A stretch of DNA of 64,000 nucleotides, taken from positions 1 to 64,000 of the IMG/VR virus record IMGVR_UViG_3300036828_000667. One strand, 5' to 3'. Origin of the DNA: a virus. Below are positions 16,619 through 64,000 of the stretch, piece by piece. The notes below the pieces were generated by a model, which saw only the letters and a program-made list of their open reading frames with translations, had not been told where the DNA came from and did no database searches. A program made the translations under genes and the position numbers. Position 1 is the first letter of the stretch. Every line of letters starts with the position of its first letter.

Positions 16619-16675
16619 GGTTACTCCAGAACAAGACGCTTGACATTGGGTCTAGGCATGGTACCGTGGCGATGT

Positions 16676-16760
16676 GCACACCGAACCGGAGCATACCTAC
16701 CCACGCCTTCCCGCGCCATTCCAAACCATACCCAACCTACCCTCACCACACCGCACCATA
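16676..16760 (+). ncRNA. pentamer element E1, 17 units
   Basis: (C/G)C-NNN x17; TTGACA 16640; ends CCACA CCGCA CCATA. Confidence 0.85.
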
Positions 16761-16777
16761 CTATTACCTAGTACATA

Positions 16778-17578
16778 CTACCCACTGTGAGGCAGGCTCA
16801 CCCCAACATTTGGAAGAACGGGCGAGACATCCGATGGACGCACCACACCAGCAGTCGCATTTGGCTGGACGTTCACGGGTGCGGTAACTGGCACTAAACC
16901 ACCAGCGTTCGGCCCTGTATAGTTGACTTGCTCGATATCAAGAATCGATACATTACTATAATCTTTTTCCTGTGCGACTCTCATAGCAATAGACTTGGCC
17001 TCTTCTGGAGAAGAAGCTCTAATCGATAGGTGCTCCGTTCGTGGCGTTTCTGTCTCCGGAGTCGAATACTGAATTTTCACGGCGAACGTATAGAGCCCTC
17101 CCGGAGCAGTGAGAGTAGGATCGTGACCTGCGAAGTCTTCACCAAACACAGCCACATGCACTGAACGCCTCATGGCATTTTCACTTATTTTCATGACTTG
17201 GGTTCCTGTCGTTACGATACAAGAATCACTGTAATGCGGTGACAGTTCCCAAGGAACATTAACACCGATATAGTTCAACGCTCTGGTGAGAATATCCCTA
17301 GGATTGTCTACACCGTATTGTTTAGCTAAAGTCCTAACCAAACTCCCTTGTGAGGTGTCATTGACCAAGGCCATGACATCCTCGACTGGCAAGTGATCTC
17401 CTCTTGCAATAGCATCAGTACTCGGATCACTAGGATCAGTATCAGGAGTACCAGGACGCTTAGACATCAGATGAATAGGGAGTGCATCTGAAAATGCGCA
17501 TATAAACTGGAAATCTCTTCGCGAGAAGTCATCTCCTAACATTCTTAATCTATCCCACACACGTAATGTCGTCACCAT
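16778..17578 (-). CDS. hypothetical protein (contains E1 match)
   Basis: 266 aa, GGAGA RBS. Confidence 0.75.
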   Translation of the reverse strand: MVTTLRVWDRLRMLGDDFSRRDFQFICAFSDALPIHLMSKRPGTPDTDPSDPSTDAIARGDHLPVEDVMALVNDTSQGSLVRTLAKQYGVDNPRDILTRALNYIGVNVPWELSPHYSDSCIVTTGTQVMKISENAMRRSVHVAVFGEDFAGHDPTLTAPGGLYTFAVKIQYSTPETETPRTEHLSIRASSPEEAKSIAMRVAQEKDYSNVSILDIEQVNYTGPNAGGLVPVTAPVNVQPNATAGVVRPSDVSPVLPNVGVSLPHSG

Positions 17579-17606
17579 GACGTTTTCTCCAAAAATGAGA
17601 CGTACA

Positions 17607-18134
17607 CTACTCTACCCAGTTTTTACCACTCCGAATATAAGAAATCATAACATGACTAACTCCAAATTCTGCTGCTAAACTCGTATTAATACCCCAATAG
17701 TGAGAACGAGACCTAATATCATCAACTTGTGATCGCGTAAGCTTTGAATTGCCGTTGCGTTGACCTTTCCCACTAGTTCCGTGTTCAATCTGGTCTTTCA
17801 CATTTTTTTCATGAGTATCCCATTTAATATTTTCAGGCCAGCGGTTATCAGAAGGATTTCCATTAAGATGACGACATTCTTGCCCAGGTGGACAAGGACC
17901 ATAAAACGCATTCAGGATAAGAGCATGAACTCTATATGTCTCCAACTTCCTTTCTTCGCCCTTCCACCGTCCAACTGTCATATACCCATCAGAGTTAGAT
18001 GTTAATTTTCTAAACTCAATCTCTTTTATAGTACGATTCTTAAACCTTCCTCCAGGAAGTACCCTAACACGACCACGATTTGAGACCTGATGGAACGGCC
18101 AACTCTCGATATCTTTCCAAATCTCTTCAGTCAC
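17607..18134 (-). CDS. NUMOD4-HNH homing endonuclease
   Basis: EIWKDI..QVSNRGRVR; RVH.LI..AF; CRHLNGNPSDN; GTG start after AGGAGG. Confidence 0.88.
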   Translation of the reverse strand: MTEEIWKDIESWPFHQVSNRGRVRVLPGGRFKNRTIKEIEFRKLTSNSDGYMTVGRWKGEERKLETYRVHALILNAFYGPCPPGQECRHLNGNPSDNRWPENIKWDTHEKNVKDQIEHGTSGKGQRNGNSKLTRSQVDDIRSRSHYWGINTSLAAEFGVSHVMISYIRSGKNWVE

Positions 18135-18281
18135 TGTGATCCCTCCTAGTTTTACAGTCGTAGTTTTACAAACAGAAAAATCGGCGGCTGGCGGGAGACC
18201 GCCTTCCTCCGTCAAATAACCGCCAATCCATGGAGATTTAGTCCAACGTACTCCTGTTGTACGATCGACGCAAGAGGGAAT

Positions 18282-18767
18282 TCACTTCTCAGGCTTGGGT
18301 TTTGGCTTGGGGTTATAGTGCGGCTCGATAAGCTTCAGTATTTTGTGCAATCTGACTATAGCTCTATCTAACTCTTCATCCTTATCTTCTTTGATCCCTC
18401 TCAATTCCTTCAACTTACCGACTGCATGAGTTAGAGCAGCGTGAGCTAAAGTCTTACTGATACTAAGACTTGTACCAAGATGTTCAATCTGATGATGCAA
18501 ATGTGTCTCTACATCCCCAGGCGCAATATCTATATGAGCGGCATGCGTAATCCCCGTAATTACTGCACTGGCAAGAACTGATTTATGATGTTCCTTTACA
18601 GTTCCAAGAACCTTGCTAGCAGCACTGTGAACTGCCTGCTGTCCCTTACCGTTAACAAAACCGTTTATTCTAGATTTAATATCAGGTGACTTTGGACGAT
18701 CCCCCATTGTACCAAACATATATTGATCTTTTTCTATGAAGTCCAAAACACTAAGAACATAGCTCAT
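18282..18767 (-). CDS. hypothetical protein
   Basis: 161 aa coupled ORF. Confidence 0.65.
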   Translation of the reverse strand: MSYVLSVLDFIEKDQYMFGTMGDRPKSPDIKSRINGFVNGKGQQAVHSAASKVLGTVKEHHKSVLASAVITGITHAAHIDIAPGDVETHLHHQIEHLGTSLSISKTLAHAALTHAVGKLKELRGIKEDKDEELDRAIVRLHKILKLIEPHYNPKPKPKPEK

Positions 18768-19411
18768 TGAGATCCACCGTTCTTGGCCAGCATGTTGGAA
18801 AGTTCACGTGGACTCTTGCTTAGGTCACTAGTGCCAGCATCAGTAGTATCAGGTGCAGACATCTGATTTTGTATTCCTGTTGTCCCTAGAAGGCTAGTAG
18901 CACCTGTAGTGAGAGAAGATTGGGGCGTTGTCGTAGGAGGGTTGATACCTATAGATGATTGATCTAAGCCAGGACTAATAGGAGGCCTATTCAGGTTATT
19001 GGGACCGACATCGCCGGTCTGATGTTGACCCGTCAAGGACGGTTGACGTAAGCCCGTAGGTGGCTCACTGGATACAGAATTCGTTGTAGTCGTAGATCGA
19101 CTAGAAATATTCCCTAGGTCAGTCGTAGGATTATCATCAGAATAAGTCTTACCAATAAGCTCTCTGAGAACGGAAGAAACTGGGGAAGAGAAACTGGTCA
19201 AGGACTCACCTCGCTTCCTGCTATAAAACGCCGCGAGAGCTTGTTGTCTACGCTTAGCCTTGGACTTTCCCTTAAATCTGGGATCATCGCTGTTAACGAA
19301 GTCCTTTATCCAGGCACCAGCACCACTAGACACTGATAAGGGCATATCTTTACTCCTAGTCACATTACTACGTTGACCAACCATATTAATTGTATTGAGA
19401 ATATAACGCAC
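18764..19411 (-). CDS. hypothetical protein, S/T/P-rich tail
   Basis: WIKDF..SD.P.FKGKSK..RR..ALAAFY motif. Confidence 0.7.
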   Translation of the reverse strand: MRYILNTINMVGQRSNVTRSKDMPLSVSSGAGAWIKDFVNSDDPRFKGKSKAKRRQQALAAFYSRKRGESLTSFSSPVSSVLRELIGKTYSDDNPTTDLGNISSRSTTTTNSVSSEPPTGLRQPSLTGQHQTGDVGPNNLNRPPISPGLDQSSIGINPPTTTPQSSLTTGATSLLGTTGIQNQMSAPDTTDAGTSDLSKSPRELSNMLAKNGGSQ

Positions 19412-19437
19412 TTAAACATACCTCATTTTCCAGAATG

Positions 19438-19724
19438 TCTCGGGCAAGAGGTATAAGGCAGCGCTGTCTCTAGTTGCCTCTACCTCTTGCCCGCCGTGGG
19501 TCCTTTAGAGGATATGCACTAGGAGCTTCTCGGGTTTATCCTCCAAAGGCACGGGAGTGATCTCGGACAAAGCAGCACAAGGTACAGATACCTTTCCAGA
19601 TGATTCCTTCCTTGTACTACTTTGTCCGCCGTGGTCCCGAAACTAGTATGCGAAAAACGATCACTTAGCACTACGAGCACTGCGAGTACCTTGTGAAATC
19701 GATTTCTAATTTCAGGCACGGGAG
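19438..19724 (-). ncRNA. candidate structured RNA with two tandem units
   Basis: CTCCCGTGCC-stem-GGAC(C)CACGGCGG-stem-CCGAGA twice; most stem mismatches are G-U on minus strand. Confidence 0.6.
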
Positions 19725-19726
19725 CT

Positions 19727-19918
19727 TCATTTAATAATCCGTTTCAAGTCAGGAACTTTCCTCTTATTTCGCAATCTCAATTCACTCAACCGGTTCATTA
19801 CCGCCCTTTCGTTACGTCCCCTTGAATTAAGAGACATAGCCAAACAGGCAGGATCTACCTTGACTTTGTCATTATGCCACTGCTTAAGAAATTCATCGTC
19901 CTCTTTAGACCACTTCAT
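19727..19918 (-). CDS. small HTH/Myb-like protein
   Basis: KWSKEDDEFL...R.ERAV..RL..L. Confidence 0.5.
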   Translation of the reverse strand: MKWSKEDDEFLKQWHNDKVKVDPACLAMSLNSRGRNERAVMNRLSELRLRNKRKVPDLKRIIK

Positions 19919-19919
19919 T

Positions 19920-20213
19920 TCACTTGGTCTCAGACTCCAGTGGACGTAATGGAGGTAATGGTACTGTTTCGGTTTCGTCCGATTGTAATCCGAAAGTGGT
20001 ATTACTTCTATTACCACTTATACATTGCGACAGTAATGTGTGAATTGACGCAAGATCACGACTACGTACATCAGCTTGCTTTACCAACGCAAAATAGATC
20101 AAGCCCAATAGAGCCATGTTCATGACTACTAGAGCAAGGGATAATGGCTGCGATTTAAGAGAATCCATGAAACTGGCAGCAGCCTTACCAGCCTCTTCAA
20201 CAGGACCAGTCAT
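19920..20213 (-). CDS. single-TM membrane protein
   Basis: hydrophobic LSLALVVMNMALLGLIYFAL. Confidence 0.6.
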   Translation of the reverse strand: MTGPVEEAGKAAASFMDSLKSQPLSLALVVMNMALLGLIYFALVKQADVRSRDLASIHTLLSQCISGNRSNTTFGLQSDETETVPLPPLRPLESETK

Positions 20214-20219
20214 TGGTTA

Positions 20220-20492
20220 TCATCCTGTAGGATGCTTAGAAGCATCTTCAGGTGTCTTTGCCTTATGGTGTTCTTCAGGTGCTTTTGCTTTATGGTCTTC
20301 AGGCTTCTTTGCCTTTACAGGCTCCTCGGGCGGGGGAGGCTCAACATGAACCGGGTAGACCGGCTGATCGTCAACGCCCTCGGGCTGATCGCCGAGCGTG
20401 TGGATCACGGGCCTAATCATCTCGTCCCGAGAATGACGATATTCTGGGAACCCACCATCAGCACCCACGATCTTTTCAACGTATTGAGCCAT
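20220..20492 (-). CDS. P/E/K-rich hypothetical protein (contains E2 match)
   Basis: AGGAGA RBS. Confidence 0.7.
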   Translation of the reverse strand: MAQYVEKIVGADGGFPEYRHSRDEMIRPVIHTLGDQPEGVDDQPVYPVHVEPPPPEEPVKAKKPEDHKAKAPEEHHKAKTPEDASKHPTG

Positions 20493-20546
20493 TGGTCATC
20501 TCCTTTGTTGACAAGACTACCTCAATAGGTGTTAAAAGCTTCTTCT

Positions 20547-20611
20547 ACGGACCATTCCGATCCGAAGCCAGCCCCACCGTGCCTATCCCCTCCCCAGCGA
20601 ACCGAACCACA
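20547..20611 (+). ncRNA. pentamer element E2, 12-13 units
   Basis: TTGACA 20508; CC-NNN register; ends CCGAA CCACA. Confidence 0.82.
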
Positions 20612-20846
20612 CACACTTTATCACGATCACACACTATCCTGGGGCACGTCTCTAACTCTAGTCCAAGAATCACTACTCTTGGTATAGAACCAAACGCTAG
20701 CGTCGTCACACAAAGCGACTATCGGATTAACTTCGGACCCCTGTGAAACCTGGACAACTTTTCTAGTCTTACCAGGAGGATTAGGTTGCTGAGGTGCCAT
20801 GTTCATCCAACCTTCTATCCATACGCGTGTCATCATGACCTTGTCC

Positions 20847-21083
20847 TTAGATGGTGTGGCGTATTAAATACTTTCCAACTAGAAAACATAGTTCATTTAC
20901 TATCAGACAGGTAACAATCACTGTAATGCCAGTAAGAGTACCAACACCCGCTTTCTGCAATAGAACGGCAGCAACAATTGCAAGTACCAACCCAAGGAGG
21001 ACAAGTACTACCAATGAGCGCTGAAGTCCTTGTAGAAAGCCCGTGACTCCGCTTATCCCTAGTAACGTAAAGGTAAGTTTCAT
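20847..21083 (-). CDS. small membrane protein
   Basis: two or three hydrophobic segments. Confidence 0.55.
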   Translation of the reverse strand: MKLTFTLLGISGVTGFLQGLQRSLVVLVLLGLVLAIVAAVLLQKAGVGTLTGITVIVTCLIVNELCFLVGKYLIRHTI

Positions 21084-21104
21084 ATTGTTTCCCCATTGTT
21101 ACAG

Positions 21105-34436: not shown

Positions 34437-34511
34437 GCATACCGCCCCTCTCCAGGCCGCTGCACGGCATACCGAACCGCCCCTGCCCTGACCAAAGCAC
34501 ACCGCACCATA
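34437..34511 (+). ncRNA. pentamer element E3, 15 units
   Basis: TTGCCA 34401; ends GCACA CCGCA CCATA CTTT. Confidence 0.85.
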
Positions 34512-35509: not shown

Positions 35510-35512
35510 GAT

Positions 35513-38055: not shown

Positions 38056-38571
38056 TTATTGAGACCGGTAGCCCAGCTGATCAAGTCTACTCGATATGTT
38101 ACTGTAGACAAGATTGTCGATACCCGTAATATAGTCCAGCGTTTTGTTATGACAGTTGAAAGCGAACACACGCCATGTAACCTTATTAGTTAAGGCTAAT
38201 AGATCGGTCCCGAAGACCTCGACAAAGGATAGGAACAGACTAGCGTTATCAGACTTAGCACTATAGTATTGGCTTAAGACAAACTCATCAAACTCCTCCG
38301 AAAAAGCGGAGAACACCTTCAGAGCAAAACTAGAAATATCAGGAGTGTTATCAGGAACACGGATATCGACTGGGATATCTAGCTTATAGATAAGAGGTGC
38401 AGCCTTATCAAGACCATCTATCTCAGCTTCTTTGAGAGAGATACCACGAGAAACTGGGGAAAGGAATAACCTGCAATCAGCCTTGTCAAGGATCAAAGAG
38501 AGTTCATCGATCTCGGTGTAATCTGTAATTACAGTACCATCAGAAAACTGTACGACTTTATTACAACTCAT
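38056..38571 (-). CDS. hypothetical protein
   Basis: 171 aa. Confidence 0.6.
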   Translation of the reverse strand: MSCNKVVQFSDGTVITDYTEIDELSLILDKADCRLFLSPVSRGISLKEAEIDGLDKAAPLIYKLDIPVDIRVPDNTPDISSFALKVFSAFSEEFDEFVLSQYYSAKSDNASLFLSFVEVFGTDLLALTNKVTWRVFAFNCHNKTLDYITGIDNLVYSNISSRLDQLGYRSQ

Positions 38572-39077
38572 TCCGATCTAGTCTCAGTACAAGCATAAGG
38601 TCCAGCTATACGATTAGCTGCCTCAACATAAGCTTGATGCGCTTCGTCTGGCGTATTAAATGTACCAAGACAAATGTATTTATTATCACGCTTGATTCTA
38701 GCCTGCCATCTATTACCGTTAGCCACTACACCTTTCAGTCCACTGGTAGTATTCTTACGCACACTGTTATAACGATTTTGCGAAGTAGTTGCTGGACGTA
38801 GGTTTGTCCAAATATTATTTGCCTTATTCCTATCTTTGTGATCAATTTCATCTTCTGGCCATTCTCCTTTCATCCACAACCAGATGATACGATGTACCTT
38901 ATAATCCTGTCCTTGATATCTAACTACCACATATCCGAACTTATGAATACGACCTGCCTTAGATCCTATAGGAGTGTTCTTCCTAGGCCTTATTGTCCAG
39001 ATCAGATCACCGGTCAATGGATTGTAATGAAAAATCTCTCTGACAGTATCTGCTGTCAGATCATTTACATATTCCAT
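38568..39077 (-). CDS. HNH-AP2 endonuclease
   Basis: HRIIW, IDHKDRNKANN..NLR, SGLKGV..WQARI..LGTF. Confidence 0.88.
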   Translation of the reverse strand: MEYVNDLTADTVREIFHYNPLTGDLIWTIRPRKNTPIGSKAGRIHKFGYVVVRYQGQDYKVHRIIWLWMKGEWPEDEIDHKDRNKANNIWTNLRPATTSQNRYNSVRKNTTSGLKGVVANGNRWQARIKRDNKYICLGTFNTPDEAHQAYVEAANRIAGPYACTETRSE

Positions 39078-39098: not shown

Positions 39099-39269
39099 TC
39101 AATCACGGATGAAACGCTGGATGACAAGTTGATTATTTGACAAGGATGCTTTATACCTACCGTCATCGCCAATCTTTTCACAGATTTGACGAGCCTCAGA
39201 ATCAGTAACACTGTCCTCCTTGATCCCAAGTTGAACTTTAGTCACGTGATCCGCTGACACTAGCACCAT
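39099..39269 (-). CDS. 56-aa protein paralogous to C-terminus of 39402-39920 (not in ORF track)
   Basis: MVLVSADHVTKVQLGIKEDSVTDSEARQICEKIGDDGRYKASLSNNQLVIQRFIRD. Confidence 0.7.
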   Translation of the reverse strand: MVLVSADHVTKVQLGIKEDSVTDSEARQICEKIGDDGRYKASLSNNQLVIQRFIRD

Positions 39270-39315: not shown

Positions 39316-39380
39316 CCACTTCACCCCGAACCGACCCGAACCATGCCACCCCGATCTGCACCCGTCCGCTCCATACCACA
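39316..39380 (+). ncRNA. pentamer element E4, 13 units
   Basis: TTGACT 39285; ends CCATA CCACA CTTTTT. Confidence 0.82.
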
Positions 39381-39401: not shown

Positions 39402-39920
39402 TCATTCGGCGGACCACTGGATGATAAGCTTGTCGTTAGATAGACCAGCCTTGAAACTGCGATTATTGGCGATTTGTTCGACTATCTGTCTGGCACGAAC
39501 AATGGTCACTTCTTTTTCCATGATTCCTAAAGCTTCACGAATAGACTTACCTACCCGCACCTTAATCATACCACTACTCCTTGTCGTGCCATCCGAATTC
39601 AACCTACGTCTCCACTCAAGATTACTAGGACGGTTATCAAACCTAATATCATTCAGATGTTTAGCCATATACCCAGGTTTTTTAACCTGTCCAGTGAACG
39701 CAGATAATATAAACCAATGAGAAAGGTAACGACGATAGTGTTTTATAACTACCAAATAACCATCAGGGGTAAGAGTTTGTATTCTAAGTTCTGTCTTCTC
39801 TACGACTCTATGGCCAACGATACCACCCGGTAACACTCTAATACGACCATGATCAGAAGCTTGGTGATAAGGCCAATCTGGAATGTCTTTCCAGATCTCA
39901 CCCTTGTGTCCCCGAATCAT
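39402..39920 (-). CDS. NUMOD4-HNH protein fused to an extra C-terminal domain
   Basis: EIWKDI..QASDHGRIR; HLND...DNR.SNLEW. Confidence 0.75.
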   Translation of the reverse strand: MIRGHKGEIWKDIPDWPYHQASDHGRIRVLPGGIVGHRVVEKTELRIQTLTPDGYLVVIKHYRRYLSHWFILSAFTGQVKKPGYMAKHLNDIRFDNRPSNLEWRRRLNSDGTTRSSGMIKVRVGKSIREALGIMEKEVTIVRARQIVEQIANNRSFKAGLSNDKLIIQWSAE

Positions 39921-40176: not shown

Positions 40177-40258
40177 GACCGTCTATCCCATCCGAACCAG
40201 TCCAATCCTATCCTATGCACACCGCACAGAATGACCTAAGAGAAATCTTAGGTCATTC
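40177..40258 (+). ncRNA. pentamer element E5 (8-10 units) with GAAA-loop hairpin
   Basis: TTGACT 40148; GCACA CCGCA; 13-bp stem 40229-40258. Confidence 0.85.
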
Positions 40259-40263
40259 GCTTT

Positions 40264-40476
40264 TCAATCAGTGTCATAACCATCTGCGCTATAGTAGTTA
40301 TTTTCGTGGTACGGACACTCTTCTCTCATGAGAGCTAAGCAACGGCGAATAGATGCACTGCTTGTCCCATAGGACTCAACCACGTGGTCGCACCTTGAAC
40401 AAGTAACCTTGACACTGGGAACTTCCCCGTGATCACCTTCCAATTCGATTTCATCTATGGTACATTTTACCTTCAT
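40264..40476 (-). CDS. small Cys-rich protein (contains E5 match)
   Basis: CSRC, RRCL..MREECP. Confidence 0.7.
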   Translation of the reverse strand: MKVKCTIDEIELEGDHGEVPSVKVTCSRCDHVVESYGTSSASIRRCLALMREECPYHENNYYSADGYDTD

Positions 40477-40682
40477 GGCGCATCGTCAGGCCAGTATTTG
40501 AACTGGTTCCTAGATTGCCAATTATATATAGGTTGCCAGATCCCAATCTTCGCTAGTAGCTTCAAATACAATGGAGCGGCAGCATGACAAGCAACTAGCA
40601 TCTGATCGTAATGATCGTTGTGAGCCTTGATCCGGTCAAGAAAGGGAGTCTCTCCCTTCGTATGTTCACCGATTGATCCCAT
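40473..40682 (-). CDS. hypothetical protein (contains E6 match)
   Basis: ATG 40682 after GGAGG. Confidence 0.65.
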   Translation of the reverse strand: MGSIGEHTKGETPFLDRIKAHNDHYDQMLVACHAAAPLYLKLLAKIGIWQPIYNWQSRNQFKYWPDDAP

Positions 40683-40729
40683 ATCCCCCTCCACTTGACT
40701 CACAAAGATTATTTGGCTACTATCCAAAC

Positions 40730-40811
40730 GCGAGCCAAACCGGTCCACTCCACGCCCCTCCTTCGCTTACCGATCCACACAGAATGGCCTGAGAGAAATC
40801 TTGGGCCATTC
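40730..40811 (+). ncRNA. pentamer element E6 (10 units) with GAAA-loop hairpin
   Basis: TTGACT 40695-N17-TACTAT; stem 40782-40811 with two G-U pairs. Confidence 0.85.
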
Positions 40812-40920
40812 GCTATTCCATTGCCTTCACGGTAAAGATTTCGTCAACCTGACCACCACACGTGCAAGGCCAGTATCTCATAATTTAGCATTTGCGTTCA
40901 CCACAAACCTTCGTCATTGT

Positions 40921-42397: not shown

Positions 42398-42422
42398 CCA
42401 GTGCACAGCGCAGCATACCGCA
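42398..42422 (+). ncRNA. truncated pentamer element E7 (3' part)
   Basis: CCAGT GCACA GCGCA GCATA CCGCA CTTTTTATATCAC; same 3' flank as E4. Confidence 0.65.
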
Positions 42423-44223: not shown

Positions 44224-44309
44224 GTAGTAGGTTTTCCTGTTGTGCTAGTTTAACTGAGATAAGGGCGGTAGGTCCCCTCGATCCCTCCCCAGCCCAGCCC
44301 CTCCCGGCA

Positions 44310-45497: not shown

Positions 45498-45557
45498 TAT
45501 GGTGTGGTATGCTGCGGTGTGGTTCGAGGGGCCGCGGGCTGGTTTGGTTAGGGTTGC
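45498..45557 (-). ncRNA. pentamer element E8, 12 units
   Basis: NNN-GG/GC register on plus; tandem with E9. Confidence 0.8.
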
Positions 45558-45578: not shown

Positions 45579-45633
45579 TATGGTGCGGTATGCTGAGGAT
45601 TGCGATGGTCTGCGCTGGGTCGCTGTGCTAGGC
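45579..45633 (-). ncRNA. pentamer element E9, 11 units
   Basis: TTGACT(-) 45663-45668 N17 TATGGC; ends GCATA CCGCA CCATA. Confidence 0.82.
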
Positions 45634-47188: not shown

Positions 47189-47268
47189 TATGGTGCGGTG
47201 TGCAGCGGTTAGGCATGGGATGGGCGGGCTGGCGACGGCGAGGCACGGGTTGCATTGGTGTGGGTTGG
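47189..47268 (-). ncRNA. pentamer element E10, 16 units
   Basis: follows hairpin 47281-47317; ends GCACA CCGCA CCATA CTTTT. Confidence 0.85.
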
Positions 47269-47325
47269 TAGGATAGAGGACAAAGGACCAGAAGATTAGA
47301 TATCCTCTGATCCTTTGAACAGATG

Positions 47326-47390
47326 TGCGGTTTGGTATGCTGTGGGCCGGCACGGCTGGGGGTGGCGCGGGAAGGCTTGGCATGGCTTGC
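47326..47390 (-). ncRNA. pentamer element E11, 13 units
   Basis: TTGACT(-) 47421-47426 N17 TAGTCT. Confidence 0.88.
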
Positions 47391-47433: not shown

Positions 47434-47847
47434 TTACCTGATACGCTGCACTAAGCAACCTTCCGATTTTGCCTGCCACGTCCCACACCACTGGCCAGCT
47501 TCAACAGGTCGCAAGATCCACTTTCGTGAATATTCCCAGATCGGAACGACCTTTTTTTCCATGACCTTCTGGCCGTTCTCGTCTAAGACGAGTTTGTTCT
47601 TTTCACCCCGCTTAGACCGTGAGATTTCCTGTGTCCCGACTTGCGTGGCAAATTTCATTTTGACCGCGGACACAGCTGAACCCAAAGTTTTCATGGGATC
47701 GGGCATCTTCTCGGTCTTAGCTGCGAAGAAGCTCTGTCCGACGCCCAATTTATCAAGAGGATATTTGGCGACCCCATTACGGTTACCACGTTTCGACTTC
47801 GGCATTTCCACCGCGTCGATGATTTCAAACGTCACTTGCTCTTCCAT
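47434..47847 (-). CDS. putative DNA-binding phage protein (contains E10 and E11 matches)
   Basis: KYPLDKLGVGQSFF motif. Confidence 0.75.
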   Translation of the reverse strand: MEEQVTFEIIDAVEMPKSKRGNRNGVAKYPLDKLGVGQSFFAAKTEKMPDPMKTLGSAVSAVKMKFATQVGTQEISRSKRGEKNKLVLDENGQKVMEKKVVPIWEYSRKWILRPVEAGQWCGTWQAKSEGCLVQRIR

Positions 47848-49433: not shown

Positions 49434-49805
49434 TTGGACTTGCGCCTAGGATGGAGAATACCCAGGAGGATTGGCAAGATCCTTGGTTACCTGGAAGGGT
49501 TCAAATCCCTACATCCCTTGCCCTTAAGAAAGTTCAACCTTCCACCAAAAATAGGGGAAAGACCTTTGAAGAAAGAAAAGAAGGAGAAGGAGAACAAGGC
49601 ATATACTATAGCCGACGAACTATCCAATTGGCTAACTAAAAACAAAGTAGATATAGGTGATGCTATCGATGCCATGGCTAGGTTAATAGGATTGGCTGTA
49701 GGTGTCAGCGTAGACTATGAGGAAATAGAAACCATACTACAGAATATCTACAAGGAAAGTCTCAAAGCGGCGTACTTTTCGTATAAAAAGAATCAAGCTA
49801 ACTAG
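49434..49805 (+). CDS. hypothetical protein (start probably internal; contains E12 match)
   Basis: helical C-terminal half looks coding. Confidence 0.6.
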   Translation: MDLRLGWRIPRRIGKILGYLEGFKSLHPLPLRKFNLPPKIGERPLKKEKKEKENKAYTIADELSNWLTKNKVDIGDAIDAMARLIGLAVGVSVDYEEIETILQNIYKESLKAAYFSYKKNQAN

Positions 49806-49913: not shown

Positions 49914-49978
49914 TGCGGTTTGGCCTGCAGCGGAGCGGATAGGCTAGGTTCGGATAGGCAAGGAAAGGCGTGGTATGA
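49914..49978 (-). ncRNA. pentamer element E12, 12-13 units
   Basis: TTGACA(-) 50011-50016; ends CCAAA CCGCA. Confidence 0.85.
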
Positions 49979-52382: not shown

Positions 52383-52437
52383 TGCGGTATGGGATGCATG
52401 GGGCAGGTCCGGCAGGGTAAGCGTCGGGGTGGGGTGG
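52383..52437 (-). ncRNA. pentamer element E13, 11 units
   Basis: TTGACA(-) 52469-52474; ends CCATA CCGCA CAATTTT. Confidence 0.83.
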
Positions 52438-56445: not shown

Positions 56446-56544
56446 AAGTCATCCTCTGTTTTTGAAATGACAGAGGATGACTTGTGCGGTTTGGTTAGGA
56501 ATGCAGTGGCTCGGCAGGGTTCGCTTCGGTTTGGTATGGTTCGA
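56446..56544 (-). ncRNA. pentamer element E14 (11-12 units) with 3' hairpin
   Basis: TTGACA(-) 56576-56581 N17 TACGTC; stem 56446-56483. Confidence 0.85.
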
Positions 56545-56565
56545 ACATGCGGGACGTAGCAGAAC

Positions 56566-57183
56566 TTGACCGTCTTGTCAAATGGGTGCAAAATGTCCAA
56601 GAAGTTCTCAATATCAGTGGACCATAATGCATTAAGGCAATTTCCGTTTCTGGATCGACTCCAGAAACAACAATTCCCCATTTCAACCCTCAATGAAGTT
56701 ATGTACGTTCTTGAAAATAGACCTGAAGGATTCAAAATCGAGTTGGTTTATAGTGTATTGAAAGTGTCGTTAATTAACGTCAATAGAGACACCAATGACG
56801 ACTACTTGGGATTGCCGAAGATTGAAGGTCAGTTGAAAGACCTGTGTGATGTGATCAGAGAGACCACGTCATATGGAACACGTGGGGGAGTCGACCCAAG
56901 GACACAAATATATTATAGTAGGAAGTCGTCTATTCTACAGGGTAGTAACCTTAGTGATGATGCTCTGATAGCTCCTAATTATGTTTCTAATAGAGGTTTG
57001 AGAAAACGCCATCCTCTTGATCTTGTGTCCACAGAAGAGGTCGTTAAAAGAAGGGAACTTGCTAACCGACACTGGCAAGAACAGAAAAAAGAGCAACGAA
57101 GAAAACAACAGTCCAGTATCAACTCAAAAATCCGGAATGCTCAGGACTTTTTGACAAGAAGCAATTTTGACAAGAAGCAATAA
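56566..57183 (+). CDS. hypothetical protein (contains E15 match)
   Basis: start probably 56593. Confidence 0.7.
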   Translation: MTVLSNGCKMSKKFSISVDHNALRQFPFLDRLQKQQFPISTLNEVMYVLENRPEGFKIELVYSVLKVSLINVNRDTNDDYLGLPKIEGQLKDLCDVIRETTSYGTRGGVDPRTQIYYSRKSSILQGSNLSDDALIAPNYVSNRGLRKRHPLDLVSTEEVVKRRELANRHWQEQKKEQRRKQQSSINSKIRNAQDFLTRSNFDKKQ

Positions 57184-57201
57184 TAATGTTAACCTTCTTC
57201 G

Positions 57202-57299
57202 GCGAACCGGTCCAATCCGAACCGACCCTATCCCTACCGGACCCTTGCACAGCATACCGCACATCTACCCCTCAGGCTGTATTACACAGCCTGAGGGGT
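57202..57299 (+). ncRNA. pentamer element E15 (12 units) with 3' hairpin
   Basis: TTGACA 57167 N17 TAACCT; stem 57267-57299. Confidence 0.87.
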
Positions 57300-57321
57300 T
57301 ATTATTATTAGGAGGTTAGAG

Positions 57322-57918: not shown

Positions 57919-57929
57919 GGAGGTTAACA

Positions 57930-59661: not shown

Positions 59662-59662
59662 T

Positions 59663-60346
59663 ATGATATTTGCCGCCTATCAACGATCTATAGGCATCTC
59701 CACACCTCTCCCACAGTCTGTAATTTTTACAATGGCCGACTCTATGACAAATACCTGTAGCTCAACCTATCCAACCTATCCAGTCTGGCATAATAACATA
59801 ATAGTTTTTAACGACAGTACTCGTACATATAGTGTATATAACCCCACCACCTGTACCAACAACACGGTTGCAAGCACCTGTTTTCCTATTATACTCCAAT
59901 GGCCAGATTGGCATGATCACATTTCTATGCCAAACATTATCCAAGAAAGGATGGAGGCAGAGAACGCTAGGCTAGAACTCCAAAGACAAGCTATTGCGGA
60001 AGCTAATAGAATTGAAATGGAGAGAGCTAAGGAAAGAAGACTTAGCTCTGAGAAGGCCAAGCAGTTACTTCTAGAACACCTAACGTCTGAACAACGTGAA
60101 ACAGTTGAGAAGAATGGATGGTTTGTTATCGAAGGTGGTCGATCGAAGAAACGTTACCGGATAAGATCCAGTGGTGTTACTGGTAATGTTGAGGAGATGG
60201 ATGGAGAAAGAGTCATAGCCAAATATTGTTGTCACATATCACATAGTTATCCACGCTCGGACCATCATCTCACCCAAAAGCTCATGCTAGAATGGGATGA
60301 AGAAACCTTCTTACGACTAGCTAATAAAACTGCGATAGGCTCATAG
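59663..60346 (+). CDS. conserved phage protein
   Basis: KA..LL.EHL..EQ; C.H....P..D..L.QKL.LE.DE..FL. Confidence 0.7.
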   Translation: MIFAAYQRSIGISTPLPQSVIFTMADSMTNTCSSTYPTYPVWHNNIIVFNDSTRTYSVYNPTTCTNNTVASTCFPIILQWPDWHDHISMPNIIQERMEAENARLELQRQAIAEANRIEMERAKERRLSSEKAKQLLLEHLTSEQRETVEKNGWFVIEGGRSKKRYRIRSSGVTGNVEEMDGERVIAKYCCHISHSYPRSDHHLTQKLMLEWDEETFLRLANKTAIGS

Positions 60347-60902
60347 TCTCTCAAATGACAACCAGCAACCTGTACGGTTATGCTCGGCCTTGGTGGAGAC
60401 AAGCAAGCGTAGCCTTTGATCTTTGACCAGTTCAAGAAACTCCTCGCAGTGTGGTAGTCGCAAAAACTCATTGGTTGCTTCAGTAAGATCGTCTAGGGGA
60501 ACGAATGAATCCTGCCAGTGCGCACCAATGAGCAATGTGATCTGGACTGTCAGTTCGTCTTTTTGGGTAGTCATGTGCTCTCGCCTGTAATAAGGTGTGT
60601 AAAAAGGAATGTAACAATGAAAAAACGAATTATCAAGAAGGCCATGCGAAAAAATATGGTGTGGTGCACCCATGAAGTCTATGCCCCAAACATATTACCG
60701 TGTTCAGATCTTAACTGCCCCTTCAAGGAAGACAAAGCCCGCTTAGCCAAGCCAAAAGAACTCAAGCAATGCAGGTCATTTCAAATAACCAAGCCTACTG
60801 ACGAGTTCGAAAACTCGGTTAGCGTCCTCATAGCAAAGAGAAAAGCAGTACCTGAGATAATACCAGATAAAACCATTAGACGAAAGATAGCAGTCGCCTG
60901 AG

Positions 60903-61328
60903 ATGGTGAAGATACGTAATGTCGACCTGAGTGATCTAGTCGACCAATTCAAGGACTTCACAAAAGTCCTTGGACCCGAGGAGGTCAAAATCCTCTCTGA
61001 TGCTGATCTCCTCCTACATGTTACCATACCTCATGACGAACCTGGGAAGCTAGCCTACTTAAGCAAGAGCGCTCAAATCCAATCTAAGCTCAATAACCTT
61101 CTTTCACGACTATCCTATATTTTTAATATGACCACTATCGATAGAGATAGTTATTGGGGAAACTTGATAGAATCACAAGAAGTCGAAGGCCGAGAAAAAC
61201 GATACATAGCCTTAACACGTGATCCTAAATTCAGAGATTTAGAAGAGACCAAGTCAGCCTTGGAAGTCATACGGGATCACACTAGTAGTTTACTTTGGAT
61301 ACTCAAAACCATAGCCGGGAGGCTGTAA
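60903..61328 (+). CDS. helical protein, possibly UvsY-like
   Basis: size and coiled-coil pattern only. Confidence 0.4.
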   Translation: MVKIRNVDLSDLVDQFKDFTKVLGPEEVKILSDADLLLHVTIPHDEPGKLAYLSKSAQIQSKLNNLLSRLSYIFNMTTIDRDSYWGNLIESQEVEGREKRYIALTRDPKFRDLEETKSALEVIRDHTSSLLWILKTIAGRL

Positions 61329-61329
61329 A

Positions 61330-61611
61330 TTGGCAAAAGCAACAACGCGAGAACGTCAACCATTGACTAAGCGTGCGTTGCGTATTTATATAATAGTCAA
61401 ACAGTACGGTCCCCCAGTAGGACTTCCTATGTCCGTAGTGGACATACAGAAATATATTCCAGAAATAACCGTTGATTGTATCAGTCCACGTATGCCAGAG
61501 CTTCGTGAAAAAAGATGGCTTCTGCGTATTGGAAAAGCACCGCGTCCAAATCGAACTGGACGTTCGCAAAGCCAGTGGGTTTATAGAGTAATTAACGAGG
61601 ATGAACTTTGA
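61330..61611 (+). CDS. winged-helix-like protein
   Basis: SPRMPELREK..R....GR...W. Confidence 0.55.
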   Translation: MAKATTRERQPLTKRALRIYIIVKQYGPPVGLPMSVVDIQKYIPEITVDCISPRMPELREKRWLLRIGKAPRPNRTGRSQSQWVYRVINEDEL

Positions 61612-61623
61612 GTGGCAACAGAT

Positions 61624-61645
61624 GGACGTGTAGCTCAGCGGTAGC
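61624..61645 (+). pseudogene. tRNA 5' fragment
   Basis: GGACGTG TA GCTC AGCGGTAG; no T arm found. Confidence 0.4.
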
Positions 61646-61648
61646 ATC

Positions 61649-62176
61649 ATGGCAAAACACAATGAAGAAAATGATCTATGGTTCCTTAGCAAAATCGCAG
61701 ATGGAACCATTTCTGTATCCGAAGACGGAGAGGTCTTCAACAACAAGACAGGTAGATATATAGGCGCTCAACAAGGAGCAGGTTACCTTAAGATTTCTAT
61801 GGCAAAGAGAGTTGATGGAAAACTTGTTATTGTCCATATGCAAATCCATAGGTTAGTATGGCTACATTTCAAAGGACCTATTCCTCAGGGACTAGAAGTC
61901 AATCACAAAGATTTAAACAAATCGAACCCACGATTGTCAAATCTAGATTTACAAACACCCAAAGGGAATGCTGAACATGCCACCTTAAATGGTGTTGACC
62001 GACGCTCAAAAACAGGAGGCCATAAAAACGCTAATGCCAAATTTACACGTGAACAAGTCGAGATGCTACGGAGACAATTCAAATCGAAAGAAACCACAGT
62101 TAAAGAAATAATGATAAACTATAGTGTTTCTAAGCCAGTTGTGTATTGGATGCTGGAAGGAAGGACCTATAAATAG
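61649..62176 (+). CDS. HNH endonuclease
   Basis: IHRLVW..F.GPIP..EVNHKD.NK.N..L.NL. Confidence 0.88.
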   Translation: MAKHNEENDLWFLSKIADGTISVSEDGEVFNNKTGRYIGAQQGAGYLKISMAKRVDGKLVIVHMQIHRLVWLHFKGPIPQGLEVNHKDLNKSNPRLSNLDLQTPKGNAEHATLNGVDRRSKTGGHKNANAKFTREQVEMLRRQFKSKETTVKEIMINYSVSKPVVYWMLEGRTYK

Positions 62177-62201
62177 CTACTAACCTGTAGGATTTATAAC
62201 A

Positions 62202-62531
62202 ATGGTAGAATTTGGAGCGTTCATTCGCAAAGAACGAGAGGCCAGAGATATTAGCTTACGAAAGATGGCCAAGAAGATTGGTGTAAGTGCAACCTATCTA
62301 TCACAAGTGGAACTTGATAGGTTCCCACCACCAACTGAGGATAGGGTAAAGGCTATTGCCAAGATCATTGACTGTAATCCTGACTACCTACTGGCCAAAG
62401 CTGGACGGATCTCGACCGACATTTCCGACATCATTAAACGTCGTCCGATCGAGCTTTCGATGCTTATTCGAGCCGCCAAGTACTTGAGTAACGATGACAT
62501 TGCCCAATTGATTAATGCGGCGTCAGCGTAG
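62202..62531 (+). CDS. XRE-family HTH regulator
   Basis: SLRKMAKKIGVSATYLSQVE. Confidence 0.88.
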   Translation: MVEFGAFIRKEREARDISLRKMAKKIGVSATYLSQVELDRFPPPTEDRVKAIAKIIDCNPDYLLAKAGRISTDISDIIKRRPIELSMLIRAAKYLSNDDIAQLINAASA

Positions 62532-62625
62532 GAGCCTCACTGGTAAGTCTTTTAGGCCTGGAGGCCCTACCACCTGGCCTGTCCATAATTCGCGTCAGTG
62601 GGCTTCCAACAAAGAGGAGAGGGTA

Positions 62626-62811
62626 ATGCGTTGCGATCGGTGTCAGGGAACAGGCTGGGATCGGGCAGGAGTACACCCTGTACTTGGGCCGCTCTTCGAT
62701 TGCAACCATCCGTGTACTGAATGCGGCGGGTCAGGCATCGCCCACTGTTGCGACGGCATCTGCGAACAGCCTTCAATTGACAAGTCTATAGATGACAAGC
62801 TAACATCTTGA
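62626..62811 (+). CDS. small DnaJ-like zinc-finger protein
   Basis: CDRCQGTG, CTECGGSG. Confidence 0.6.
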   Translation: MRCDRCQGTGWDRAGVHPVLGPLFDCNHPCTECGGSGIAHCCDGICEQPSIDKSIDDKLTS

Positions 62812-62812
62812 C

Positions 62813-62877
62813 GCCTACCGTACCACTCCGACGCCAACCACACCGAGCCGGTCCATACCTTTCCAAACCAAACCACA
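62813..62877 (+). ncRNA. pentamer element E16, 13 units
   Basis: TTGACA 62777 N18 TAACAT; ends CCAAA CCACA CTTTTTT. Confidence 0.85.
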
Positions 62878-62932
62878 CTTTTTTATTACTACTAGATATT
62901 CAGGAAAGGCGAACATGAGAGGTTAGGTTAAA

Positions 62933-63085
62933 CTAACTTCGTTCTTCCTTTAGCTCAGCTACAAACTTCTTAATCAGAGTTGTTAAGGTTGGAGTGTGCT
63001 TAGCTGGAAAGTTACCAGCAAGTACCTTGGCAATAGCATACCGAATTACCTTAAACTCTTCCTCAGTTAGCTCCAACGTTATCAC
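62933..63085 (-). CDS. 50-aa hypothetical protein (not in ORF track)
   Basis: GTG start after GAGG; MITLELTEEEFKVIRYAI... Confidence 0.5.
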   Translation of the reverse strand: MITLELTEEEFKVIRYAIAKVLAGNFPAKHTPTLTTLIKKFVAELKEERS

Positions 63086-63314
63086 TAGGCACCTCGCCTT
63101 TCTTTATCACGCTAACCTTACTATCATCGATCTTCAGAGTAAACCTCTTATTATCCACAACTTCTCGCCATCTATTTTCCTCAATATAAGCACAGGCTTT
63201 AAGGTAGTCCGTCAAACAAAAAACATGAGTATGTATCTGTGACCAACACGGATGCTCACGGCATAAGTGTTCAATCTTGGCGGCTAACTCCCTGAGTGGT
63301 GATTGCATACCCAA
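63063..63314 (-). CDS. hypothetical protein
   Basis: GGAGG RBS. Confidence 0.55.
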   Translation of the reverse strand: MGMQSPLRELAAKIEHLCREHPCWSQIHTHVFCLTDYLKACAYIEENRWREVVDNKRFTLKIDDSKVSVIKKGEVPSDNVGAN

Positions 63315-63410
63315 CCTCCCTTTTGTGTGACCATAAAGTTACACTTAAATTGAATCTGATTCTGGGAATTGACCTGCCAAGGCTGATAGGCGAAAACTCA
63401 TATTGCAAGG

Positions 63411-63514
63411 TCGAACCGCTGCCTTGCTTGCCAAACCGGGCCAAGCCGGCGCGGACCAAACCTCCGCACACCGCACAATGGGAGTAGTCAAATGGCTTGC
63501 AGACTACTCCCATT
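63411..63514 (+). ncRNA. pentamer element E17 (13 units) with 3' hairpin
   Basis: TTGACC 63369; GCACA CCGCA; stem 63477-63514. Confidence 0.88.
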
Positions 63515-63533
63515 AACACAGGAGTAAAACAAC

Positions 63534-64000
63534 ATGCTAATTTCAGTCACGATCTCCGGAATCCGACCTTTAATCCTCGACGCGTTTTCCGAGGAAGCGT
63601 TGCTTAAGGGGAAGGGAGGAAAGAGTACAGCCCAGCCCAAGGAACTGAGTCCCTTGGATCAAGCCAAGCGTAGGTTATACTATAATGGAGATGGTACCGA
63701 CGTTCCTATATTCCCAGCAGACAACCTACTCAGCTGTATCATCGCTGCCGGGCGGTTTATCAAGGTCGGGAAAAGGCAACTAACTACTCGCGACAGTACG
63801 ACAGTAACTTCATTCCTACAGATATCAGAACTATATCTTCCCATTAGGTCGATAGATGGATGGCGAGTCGACTCCAGGAGCATCGTCAACCCGTCTACAA
63901 AAGGTCGTCACATATGCTACCGTCCCATCTTTGACGACTGGGAGTTAGATTTCACGCTCGACATCGATACGAATGAAGCGAGCGACAGCTTGGTTAGACA
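63534..64000 (+). CDS. RAMP/Cas7-like protein, truncated by the window end (not in ORF track)
   Basis: AGGAG RBS; MLISVTISGIRPLIL..., PIFPADNLLSCI, D.R.IV...GRH..YRPIFDDWELDFTL.ID; no stop to 64000. Confidence 0.7.
   Translation, partial: MLISVTISGIRPLILDAFSEEALLKGKGGKSTAQPKELSPLDQAKRRLYYNGDGTDVPIFPADNLLSCIIAAGRFIKVGKRQLTTRDSTTVTSFLQISELYLPIRSIDGWRVDSRSIVNPSTKGRHICYRPIFDDWELDFTLDIDTNEASDSLVR

What the first reader, a model, noticed from the sequence alone, without database searches (positions are those of the whole stretch)
16640..64000. Candidate RNA-guided system: 17 dispersed punctuated guides, (C/G)C + NNN, plus a Cas7/RAMP-like gene
Seen: 17 intergenic elements of 5-17 pentamers with a near-invariant C at position 2, C/G at position 1 and a variable triplet, sharing a 3' end like (C/G)CA(C/T/A)A CCGCA. 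Deleting the constant dinucleotides gives a codon-phased match to a neighbouring gene in 11 cases (E1, E2, E4, E5, E6, E10, E11, E12, E14, E15, E17). Established: Cas7/RAMP proteins polymerise on guide RNA with a fixed period. Inference: one protomer per pentamer, with the dinucleotide bound by protein and the triplet reading the target. From memory and unverified, this resembles recently reported phage VIPR systems (GGY-NN repeats). Here the apparent transcript is the CC strand, the third base carries target information, and guides sit singly or in pairs beside target homologues.
Basis: partly seen in the sequence, partly recalled or inferred. Interest (0 to 1): 0.97.

Follow-up and report, generated by a model that had tools for sequence, protein, structure and literature searches.

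The report
Divergent phage VIPR system, dispersed guides
A soil phage carries a variant of the recently described VIPR RNA-guided silencing system, with a changed repeat motif and about 30 guides, many placed singly beside the phage's own synonymously diverged copy of the gene they match.

Summary
The window holds 17 intergenic pentamer elements ([C/G]C+NNN). There are 14 runs of 8 or more units, against none in 200 simulations. The 113.8-kb genome holds about 30 elements, including a 10-guide array just past the window end.

The ORF at 63534 (213 aa, ends 64175) is a Vipr homologue (profile vs PDB 36pp SUSP1 Vipr, E=3e-15; Cas7/Csm3 fold). So this is a VIPR system, a kind first described in 2026 preprints.

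It is a distinct variant:
- The RNA strand is the vipr-sense "CC" strand.
- The repeat is N-(C/G)-C/NN in place of GGY/NN.
- The two G-reading G-loop residues (D-W) are V-M across this clade.

Masking shows that the two bases after CC carry the match and the fifth base falls on the wobble position. This is the published 1-nt-skip geometry.

For 10 of the 17 guides the best hit in the whole genome lies next door. Eight are strong, E4 moderate, E10 weak and E14 unsupported. NN identity to the phage's own gene is 80-100%.

The fifth base is not identical to the self codon but is synonymous with it in 48 of 52 informative codons. This is unexplained: it may be read, or it may be a relic of how the guide arose.

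Most likely role: silencing rival alleles in related phages, with the linked self allele as the immune copy. No RNA data or foreign targets were found.

The parts
63534..64000 (+). vipr gene (213 aa; runs on to 64175 beyond the window)
   Evidence: Profile of 22 homologues vs PDB 36pp 'SUSP1 Vipr protein': E=3.1e-15 over residues 16-184. Single sequence: E=4.7e-5. AlphaFold model pLDDT 80; top Foldseek hits are Csm3/Cas7 of type III and VII. PHROG 4652, function unknown.
16676..16760 (+). E1 guide, 17 units; TTGACA 36 nt upstream
   Evidence: Matches 17054-17104 (-) in ORF 16778-17578; NN 24/28 over the 14 variable units.
17054..17104 (-). Self segment matched by E1, sense and in codon phase
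20552..20611 (+). E2 guide, 12 units; TTGACA 44 nt upstream
   Evidence: Matches 20340-20375 (-) in ORF 20220-20492; NN 15/16 over 8 units.
34437..34511 (+). E3 guide, 15 units; no self match
39316..39380 (+). E4 guide, 13 units (2 imperfect), between two HNH endonuclease genes
   Evidence: Moderate match to 39192-39218 (-), NN 12/18.
40187..40226 (+). E5 guide, 8 units, followed by a terminator hairpin (-23 kcal/mol)
   Evidence: Matches 40285-40308 (-) in ORF 40264-40476; NN 11/12.
40730..40779 (+). E6 guide, 10 units, followed by a terminator hairpin homologous to that of E5
   Evidence: Matches 40635-40658 (-) in ORF 40473-40748; NN 13/16.
42398..42422 (+). E7, short element of 5 units, mostly the constant 3' end
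   Evidence: No promoter box, no match.
45498..45557 (-). E8 guide, second of a tandem pair with E9
45579..45633 (-). E9 guide, 11 units; TTGACT 35 nt upstream
47189..47268 (-). E10 guide, 16 units, second of a pair with E11
   Evidence: Only a weak match, to the tail of E11.
47326..47390 (-). E11 guide, 13 units; TTGACT 36 nt upstream; hairpin after it
   Evidence: Matches 47623-47661 (-) in ORF 47434-47847 (PHROG 7597); NN 20/20 over 10 variable units; fifth base the same in 2 of 10.
47623..47661 (-). Self segment matched by E11
49914..49973 (-). E12 guide, 12 units, with promoter box and a strong terminator
   Evidence: Matches 49763-49792. The fifth base falls on the wobble positions of the + strand ORF 49434-49805, so this is antisense-phase targeting.
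52383..52437 (-). E13 guide, 11 units; TTGACA 37 nt upstream; no self match
56485..56539 (-). E14 guide, 11 units, with promoter box and hairpin; no convincing self match
57202..57261 (+). E15 guide, 12 units, with promoter box and a -33 kcal/mol terminator
   Evidence: Matches 56794-56814 (+) in ORF 56566-57183; NN 12/14, with two Leu codon-family switches.
62813..62877 (+). E16 guide, 13 units; TTGACA 36 nt upstream; no self match
63416..63475 (+). E17 guide, 12 units, directly upstream of vipr; hairpin after it
   Evidence: Matches vipr codons 22-33 (63597-63632) and spells the identical peptide. The only NN mismatches are at two Leu codons and one Ser codon.
63597..63632 (+). Segment of vipr matched by E17

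Best explanation
This is a phage-encoded VIPR system of a divergent clade.

The Vipr protein (63534-64175) is inferred to polymerise, one protomer per pentamer, on small RNAs transcribed from the vipr-sense 'CC' strand. In each pentamer the trinucleotide N-(C/G)-C takes the place of the published GGY and is held by protein. The two bases that follow pair with DNA, and one target base is skipped per unit. That skipped base usually lies on a codon's wobble position.

Besides the usual layout (one guide upstream of vipr, an array downstream), about 19 guides are scattered over 50 kb. They stand as self-contained promoter-guide-terminator mini-genes, alone or in pairs. At least 11 of them lie within 60-400 bp of a gene of the phage itself that spells the same or nearly the same peptide as the guide, in either orientation.

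I read these as weapons against the corresponding alleles of closely related co-infecting phages, including the rival's vipr. The adjacent self allele is the linked, partly mismatched, immune copy. This is a poison-antidote arrangement that recombination cannot easily break.

Shown: the elements, the protein family, the register, the promoter and terminator polarity, and the local matches with their statistics.

Inferred: RNP formation, DNA silencing, the rival-allele targets, and immunity of the self alleles.
For: Protein:
- Profile vs PDB 36pp SUSP1 Vipr, E=3.1e-15 over nearly full length.
- Cas7/Csm3 fold.

Locus layout matches SUSP1, where the repeats are also co-directional with vipr.

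Strand and register:
- In 80 IMG/VR loci oriented on vipr, the vipr-sense strand reads GGY/NN at 27-36% identity to this protein, (g)GC/NN at 37-44%, and N-C-C/NN at 58-62% and here.
- The guide 3' ends are homologous in the same polarity. The last NN is AT, then two bases of the next trinucleotide, then a TTTAT-type tract.
- The G-loop dipeptide that reads G1 and G2 in SUSP1 (D177, W178; paper) is D-aromatic in the GGY and GGC classes. It is V-M in this clade, and in 82 of 95 homologue clusters.
- TTGAC[AT] lies 31-44 nt upstream of 13 guides on the CC strand, against 1 on the other strand; chance is 0.018 per element.
- Stable hairpins with T tracts follow the solo guides on the CC strand.

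Code: only the mask N-N-skip gives matches above shuffles.

Adjacency: the genome-wide best hit is local for 10 of 17 window guides, plus E18 and E30.

Both orientations occur (E12 and E30 are antisense), as expected for DNA targeting.

Allele-like divergence:
- 10 of 28 NN-mismatched units are synonymous Leu, Ser or Arg family switches.
- 10 of 14 conserved six-fold codons are switched.

The published systems also target rivals' vipr, both near its start and near its end.
Against: - No RNA data exist for this phage, and the only public runs are soil DNA. The strand, the RNA ends and expression itself are inferred.
- No foreign allele that matches a guide better than the self gene was found.
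- By the published criterion (80% or more NN identity) nine guides would hit the phage's own genes, and E11 does so at 20/20. Published types II, III and V showed no such self hits. Self-immunity is therefore assumed, not shown.
- No conserved vap accessory gene was found with relatives.
- The relatives whose flanks are held show no such self matches, so the dispersed arrangement is documented in one genome only.
Confidence: 0.62

Rival explanations
1. Same system, different code. In this clade the fifth base (the position that was G1) is also read, so each pentamer specifies a whole codon. The phage's own alleles are protected mainly by synonymous wobble differences.
For: - The fifth base is synonymous with the self codon in 48 of 52 non-four-fold boxes, against 25.8 expected (P<1e-6). 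It is therefore not free to drift.
- Its composition follows genome GC3: 82% G+C in the GC-rich relative L004.
- Residues that hold G1 in SUSP1 (H17, D177) are D and V here.
- E11 matches self at NN 20/20, in a peptide with no Leu, Ser or Arg. Only wobble differences (8 of 10) separate it from self.
- E18 has 0 of 13 identical wobble bases (P=0.004).
- E17 spells an identical peptide in a poorly conserved loop, yet differs at 8 of 12 wobble bases.
Against: - Overall identity of the fifth base to self is only marginally below the saturation expectation: 22 of 82 against 29 (P=0.05). Most guides taken singly are at expectation.
- In SUSP1 the thumb displaces one target base per unit. A zero-skip duplex would need a different geometry.
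- No true target is known against which to score the fifth base.
- Support from guides without a self match is weak: 28 of 30 are open in at least one orientation, against 24.5 expected (P=0.03).
Confidence: 0.35
2. Self-regulation. The dispersed guides silence the phage's own adjacent genes, for example as a timed shut-off, rather than rival alleles.
For: - NN identity to the phage's own genes is 80-100% for nine guides, above the published prediction threshold.
- Each guide lies next to the gene it matches.
- Two guides flank and match vipr itself.
Against: - A guide selected to match the self gene has no reason to mismatch it at exactly the codons where a synonymous NN change is possible (10 of 14 six-fold codons switched).
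- It would also have no reason to carry a codon-consistent but different fifth base.
- E1, E4 and E15 encode slightly different peptides from the self gene, as an allele would.
Confidence: 0.15
3. The transcript is the opposite (GG) strand, so these are the 'NNNGG' repeats already listed for some VIPR types, with nothing new in the motif.
For: - The reverse complement of CC-NN-N is N-NN-GG, which fits the published arrangement with a relaxed Y.
- The discovery paper mentions NNNGG repeats.
Against: - Promoter boxes favour the CC strand 13 to 1.
- Terminators have their T tracts on the CC strand only.
- The constant end would then lie at the 5' end, unlike all relatives.
- The arrays would be inverted relative to vipr, unlike SUSP1 and 80 relatives.
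- The G-reading residues are lost exactly in this clade.
Confidence: 0.07
4. The elements are DNA-level repeats (protein-binding sites, or recombination or replication signals) and are unrelated to the RAMP gene.
For: No RNA evidence is available.
Against: - The densest array abuts vipr, as in every relative.
- The elements have promoter-unit-terminator anatomy.
- They make codon-phased matches to genes.
- There is no Rfam family or other repeat class at these sites.
Confidence: 0.02

Closest known systems
VIPR systems, type II (Escherichia phage SUSP1, P. fulva prophage); bioRxiv 10.64898/2026.04.26.720920 and .720927
   Same: - Homologous single RAMP protein.
- Pentamer guides with a fixed trinucleotide and a variable dinucleotide.
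- One guide upstream of vipr and an array downstream, co-directional with it.
- A constant 3' end.
- Target period of 3 with the skipped base on the wobble position.
- Targets on either strand.
- Guides aimed at vipr genes.
   Different: - The trinucleotide is N-(C/G)-C, not GGY.
- G-loop D-W is replaced by V-M, and H17 by D.
- The 3' end is two or three constant units plus a plain hairpin or a TTTAT tract, not a pseudoknot.
- No conserved vap gene.
- About 19 guides are dispersed with their own promoters.
- NN identity to adjacent self genes is 80-100%, where the papers report no self hits.
- The fifth base is codon-consistent.
Solo/orphan vrRNAs of SUSP1-family phages and F5 satellites; bioRxiv 10.64898/2026.10.15.759431
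   Same: - Stand-alone guides outside an array.
- Some target rivals' vipr near its start and near its end.
- Self-match is lower than the match to rivals, as a way to avoid autoimmunity.
   Different: There, the solo guides sit at the former vipr locus of vipr-null phages, or in satellites. Here, a vipr-positive phage scatters them across its genome, each next to its own allele of the gene it matches.
Non-canonical VIPR repeat motifs (GAC/NN, CAC/NN, WGT/NN, TGH/NN); bioRxiv 10.64898/2026.10.21.760802
   Same: Divergent Vipr-like proteins with altered fixed trinucleotides.
   Different: N-C-C/NN is not named in the text I could read, and the figures are not held. That paper has no target analysis, no link from motif to residues, and no dispersed guides.
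Free-standing homing endonucleases of T-even phages (marker exclusion)
   Same: By analogy only: a selfish weapon placed next to a resistant allele of the gene that it attacks in related phages. HNH genes lie among the guides here.
   Different: RNA-guided binding or silencing, not a protein nuclease. No cleavage or homing is implied.
Class 1 CRISPR-Cas effector backbones (Cas7/Csm3)
   Same: RAMP fold, and one protomer per fixed guide period with flipped bases.
   Different: No CRISPR repeats or spacers, no cas1/cas2 seen, and no other cas genes seen near vipr or among the ORFs scanned. Period is 5 with 2 paired bases, rather than 6 with 5.

Membership tests
VIPR | Vipr protein: minimal RAMP (RRM core, G-loop, thumb) homologous to characterised Vipr | tested here: met
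   Profile vs PDB 36pp SUSP1 Vipr, E=3.1e-15, residues 16-184 vs 29-192. Foldseek top hits are Csm3/Cas7. R138 and R179 equivalents are conserved.
VIPR | Guides made of tandem pentamers with a fixed trinucleotide and a variable dinucleotide | tested here: met
   393 units. C at 98% in one column, C/G at 98% in the column before it, and the other three columns variable. 14 long runs against 0 expected.
VIPR | The fixed trinucleotide is GGY (canonical types) | tested here: not met
   Here it is N-(C/G)-C on the vipr-sense strand. The G-reading D-W is replaced by V-M. The literature allows 'related consensus' motifs, so this excludes the canonical types, not the family.
VIPR | Constant 3' tail after the variable units | tested here: met
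   The last 2-3 units are near-invariant, followed by a hairpin or a TTTAT tract. This end is homologous to the ends in relatives. No pseudoknot was sought.
VIPR | Target recognition by NN with one skipped base per unit | tested here: met
   In silico only, on self homologues. The N-N-skip mask gives 27/34, 20/24, 32/40, 21/26 and 14/16; the other masks give nothing.
VIPR | Guides flank vipr and are co-directional with it | tested here: met
   E17 lies upstream and the array 64188-65414 downstream, on the same strand. The layout is the same in SUSP1 and in 80 relatives.
VIPR | vap accessory gene next to vipr | tested here: inconclusive
   An HTH_3 protein lies at 62202-62531, but no neighbour is shared with clade relatives.
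VIPR | vrRNA co-purifies with Vipr; RNP binds dsDNA and silences transcription | not testable with these tools
   No RNA runs are available. Needs bench work.
CRISPR-Cas | Array of identical direct repeats with unique spacers, plus adaptation genes | tested here: not met
   No such repeats were found and there are no Rfam CRISPR hits. No cas1/cas2 were seen among the ORFs scanned.

The most novel reading that the evidence does not exclude
In this Vipr clade the former G1 position has been freed and is read together with NN, so that each protomer specifies a full codon. Closely related phages then fight allele against allele, and a phage protects its own genes purely by synonymous recoding (wobble changes and Leu, Ser or Arg family switches). 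Each guide with its adjacent recoded allele would behave as a poison-antidote cassette that can spread by recombination. If the fifth base is not read, its codon-consistency would instead point to an unknown templated route by which new guides are copied from target genes.
Probability: 0.35. Interest if true: 0.9.

Novelty: new variant of a known kind. Interest (0 to 1): 0.68.

Why it matters
VIPR was described only in 2026, and experiments cover one type. This phage adds four things.

1. A natural series links a change in the fixed RNA motif (GGY, then GGC, then NCC) to specific changes in the residues that read it. This makes the protein-RNA code directly testable and possibly re-engineerable.
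2. Guides are spread through the genome as independent mini-genes, each tied to the phage's own version of the gene it matches. This suggests RNA-guided allele warfare between sibling phages, with linked immunity.
3. Self matches reach levels that published criteria would call self-targeting. This raises the question of how self is spared.
4. The 'skipped' guide base keeps codon identity. Either the code is wider than thought, or the base records how guides are born, and guide origin is an open question for VIPR.

Tried and rejected
- Full-triplet (NNN) matching of whole guides against the genome was no better than shuffled unit order. The masks skip-N-N and N-skip-N gave nothing.
- Megablast of 60000-64000 against GenBank phages found no match. 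tblastn with the portal-like protein and with Vipr gave only distant hits at 25-30% identity.
- Exact NN-pattern scans of IMG/VR for targets of E11 and E18, and for the conserved 3' handle, gave 0 hits each.
- The metagenome scan gave 9 clade relatives and the species-genome scan 3 distant ones. None of their vipr alleles matches E17 or E18 better than the self gene does.
- Guides of relatives showed no convincing self matches in the flanks held.
- No RNA holder is listed for this DNA. The laid runs are contigs only.
- Rfam: no family on 62000-70000.
- The generic sigma-70 scan found only one of the guide promoters, because their -10 boxes are weak. I replaced it with a TTGAC[AT] position test.
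- Stop-codon depletion in sense triplets of unmatched guides was absent (7 observed, 7.2 expected). With both orientations allowed it is only weak (P=0.03).
- The C-rich run at 44274-44308 is not counted as a guide.
I redid it from coordinates.

Full report
**What is there**

Across 393 units, one column is C in 98% and the column before it is C (79%) or G (20%). The other three columns vary. The last two or three units are nearly constant.

Runs of eight or more units occur 14 times in the window and never in 200 composition-matched simulations. The window is the first 64 kb of a single 113,838-bp virus record.

Scanning the whole record shows what the window cuts off. The ORF at 63534 ends at 64175 (213 aa). 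It is followed at once by a tandem array of about ten more elements (64188-65414), and three further elements lie at 67031, 67703 and 68191. None occur beyond 68.3 kb.

**The protein**

Pfam gives nothing. The sequence alone does hit PDB entry 36pp, 'SUSP1 Vipr protein' (E=4.7e-5). A profile of 22 homologues hits it at E=3.1e-15 over almost the full length.

An AlphaFold model (pLDDT 80) finds Csm3/Cas7 subunits of type III and type VII CRISPR complexes first.

VIPR systems were described in three 2026 preprints. A single RAMP protein, Vipr, polymerises on vrRNAs made of 9-16 GGY/NN pentamers plus a 3' tail. The NN bases pair with DNA and every third target base is skipped. The complex silences transcription, and natural targets are satellites, prophages and rivals' VIPR loci. 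This locus belongs to that kind.

**Which strand, and which register**

In SUSP1 the GG strand is the vipr-sense strand. Here the vipr-sense strand carries CC. Four independent lines say the vipr-sense strand is still the RNA.

1. Among 80 IMG/VR loci oriented on their vipr gene, the motif on the vipr-sense strand changes stepwise with protein distance from this one:
 - GGY/NN at 27-36% identity;
 - (g)GC/NN at 37-44%;
 - N-C-C/NN at 58-62% and here.
2. The guide ends are homologous in the same polarity in all three classes. The last dinucleotide is AT, followed by two bases of the next trinucleotide and a TTTAT-type tract. This fixes the register: G1 becomes N, G2 becomes C or G, and Y3 becomes C.
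3. In SUSP1, D177 and W178 of the G-loop read G1 and G2. The GGY and GGC classes keep D-aromatic, whereas this clade has V-M and has D in place of H17. V-M is found in 82 of 95 homologue clusters.
4. TTGAC[AT] lies 31-44 nt upstream of 13 guides on the CC strand, against one on the other strand, with chance at 0.018 per element. Solo guides are followed on that strand by stable hairpins with T tracts.

The discovery paper lists 'NNNGG' among alternative repeats. That could be this class read on the other strand, but I could not check the figures. Another preprint reports other non-canonical trinucleotides.

**The code**

Stripping CC and matching whole triplets to the genome is no better than shuffled controls. 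Masking the fifth base gives matches far above shuffles: 27/34, 20/24, 32/40, 21/26 and 14/16. The other two masks give nothing. The informative bases are therefore the two after CC, with one skipped base per unit, as published.

**Where the matches lie**

For 10 of the 17 window guides, the best six-frame hit in the whole genome lies within about 1.5 kb of the guide, where chance is about 6% each. The same holds for E18 and E30 outside the window.

- Strong pairs: E1, E2, E5, E6, E11, E12, E15, E17, E18 and E30.
- Moderate: E4.
- Weak: E10, which hits only the tail of E11.
- Unsupported: E14.

E12 and E30 match in the antisense phase, with the skipped base on the wobble positions of the opposite-strand ORF. 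This fits DNA rather than mRNA recognition.

E17 and E18 flank vipr. They match its codons 22-33 and its G-loop.

NN identity to these self segments is 80-100%, and E11 reaches 20/20. The published survey found no self hit at or above 80%.

**The fifth base**

The fifth base is identical to the self codon's third base only about as often as in saturated synonymous divergence: 22 of 82 against 29 expected (P=0.05). Only E18 (0 of 13, P=0.004) and E6 stand out.

It is not random, however. In codon boxes that are not four-fold degenerate, the guide triplet encodes the same amino acid as the self codon in 48 of 52 cases, against 25.8 expected (P<1e-6).

Of the 28 units that mismatch at NN, 10 are synonymous Leu, Ser or Arg family switches. 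Ten of 14 conserved six-fold codons are switched, against 6.5 expected even at saturation (P=0.05).

The guide strings thus look like coding sequence of another allele of the adjacent gene. That allele would be the same or nearly the same in protein and saturated at silent sites.

No available relative carries such an allele. The self vipr remains the best match to E17 and E18 among 12 clade members, and pattern scans of IMG/VR found nothing.

**Interpretation**

The best reading is inter-phage conflict. Guides aim at alleles of close relatives, including their vipr, as the SUSP1 work reports for solo vrRNAs. Each guide is kept next to the phage's own mismatched allele, so that recombination does not separate the weapon from the immunity.

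Self-regulation is the main functional rival. It does not explain why mismatches fall on exactly the codons that can change silently, nor why the fifth base is codon-consistent.

The open point is that fifth base. It may contribute to recognition. The loss of the G1-holding residues, the unescapable peptide of E11 with 8 of 10 wobble differences, and E18 all point that way. Alternatively, it may be a relic of a templated origin of guides. The SUSP1 structure, in which the thumb displaces one target base per unit, argues against a simple zero-skip duplex. I put about 35% on the fifth base being read.

**Limits**

- There are no RNA data. The two runs that hold the DNA are soil metagenome DNA. 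Their contigs show co-occurring strains that differ at vipr wobble positions and at one Arg codon, and in which guides the array holds.
- The dispersed arrangement is so far seen in this one genome.
- Earlier notes of this scan on the same genome reached similar readings. They are not independent evidence.

Noticed in passing
beyond the window: genome 64949-65149 (+), inside the guide array (L001:2950-3150): A 66-aa ORF with a good ribosome-binding site is a paralogue of the C-terminal half of Vipr. It has the thumb-proximal RP-F-DW motif and a G-loop reading G-L-G-S-M-R-P. It may be a remnant of a second vipr, or a small capping or decoy protein.
   Followed up: partly
window 38568-39077 (-), 39402-39920 (-); genome 66253-66807 (-): Three free-standing HNH endonuclease genes (the last with HNH_3 plus an AP2 domain) lie among the guides. 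Two of them bracket E4. This region appears to collect selfish elements.
   Followed up: partly
window 47309-47332 (-): The only local match of E10 is to the end of the neighbouring guide E11 and its tail (about 5.5 of 8 units). It recalls the published vrRNA-targeting vrRNAs but is too weak to call.
   Followed up: partly
window 40227-40262 and 40780-40815 (+): The terminator hairpins after E5 and E6 are homologous and differ by paired changes in both arms. This suggests that the two guide cassettes are duplicates.
   Followed up: no
L001:1819-2045 and 2097-3721 (genome 63818-64044 and 64096-65720): Contigs from two soil metagenomes show co-occurring strains. They carry wobble changes and one CGG-to-AGG (Arg) change inside the G-loop segment that E18 matches. 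They also carry insertions, deletions and replacements of whole stretches of the guide array.
   Followed up: partly
window 62202-62531 (+) and 62515-62811 (+): A Cro/C1-type HTH protein and a small Cys-rich protein lie just upstream of E16 and vipr. They are possible accessory or regulatory genes, but neither is conserved next to vipr in relatives.
   Followed up: partly
whole genome: The phage is very poorly annotated. Only a portal-like protein and HNH genes hit PHROGs among 20 ORFs tested. The nearest GenBank phages (Xanthomonas phiXF1, Pseudomonas QdP_Psa3, both about 114 kb) share about 30% identity in one protein.
   Followed up: partly
window 44274-44308 (+): A C-rich run satisfies the loose pentamer pattern for 7 units but lacks the constant end, promoter and hairpin. 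It is probably not a guide.
   Followed up: no
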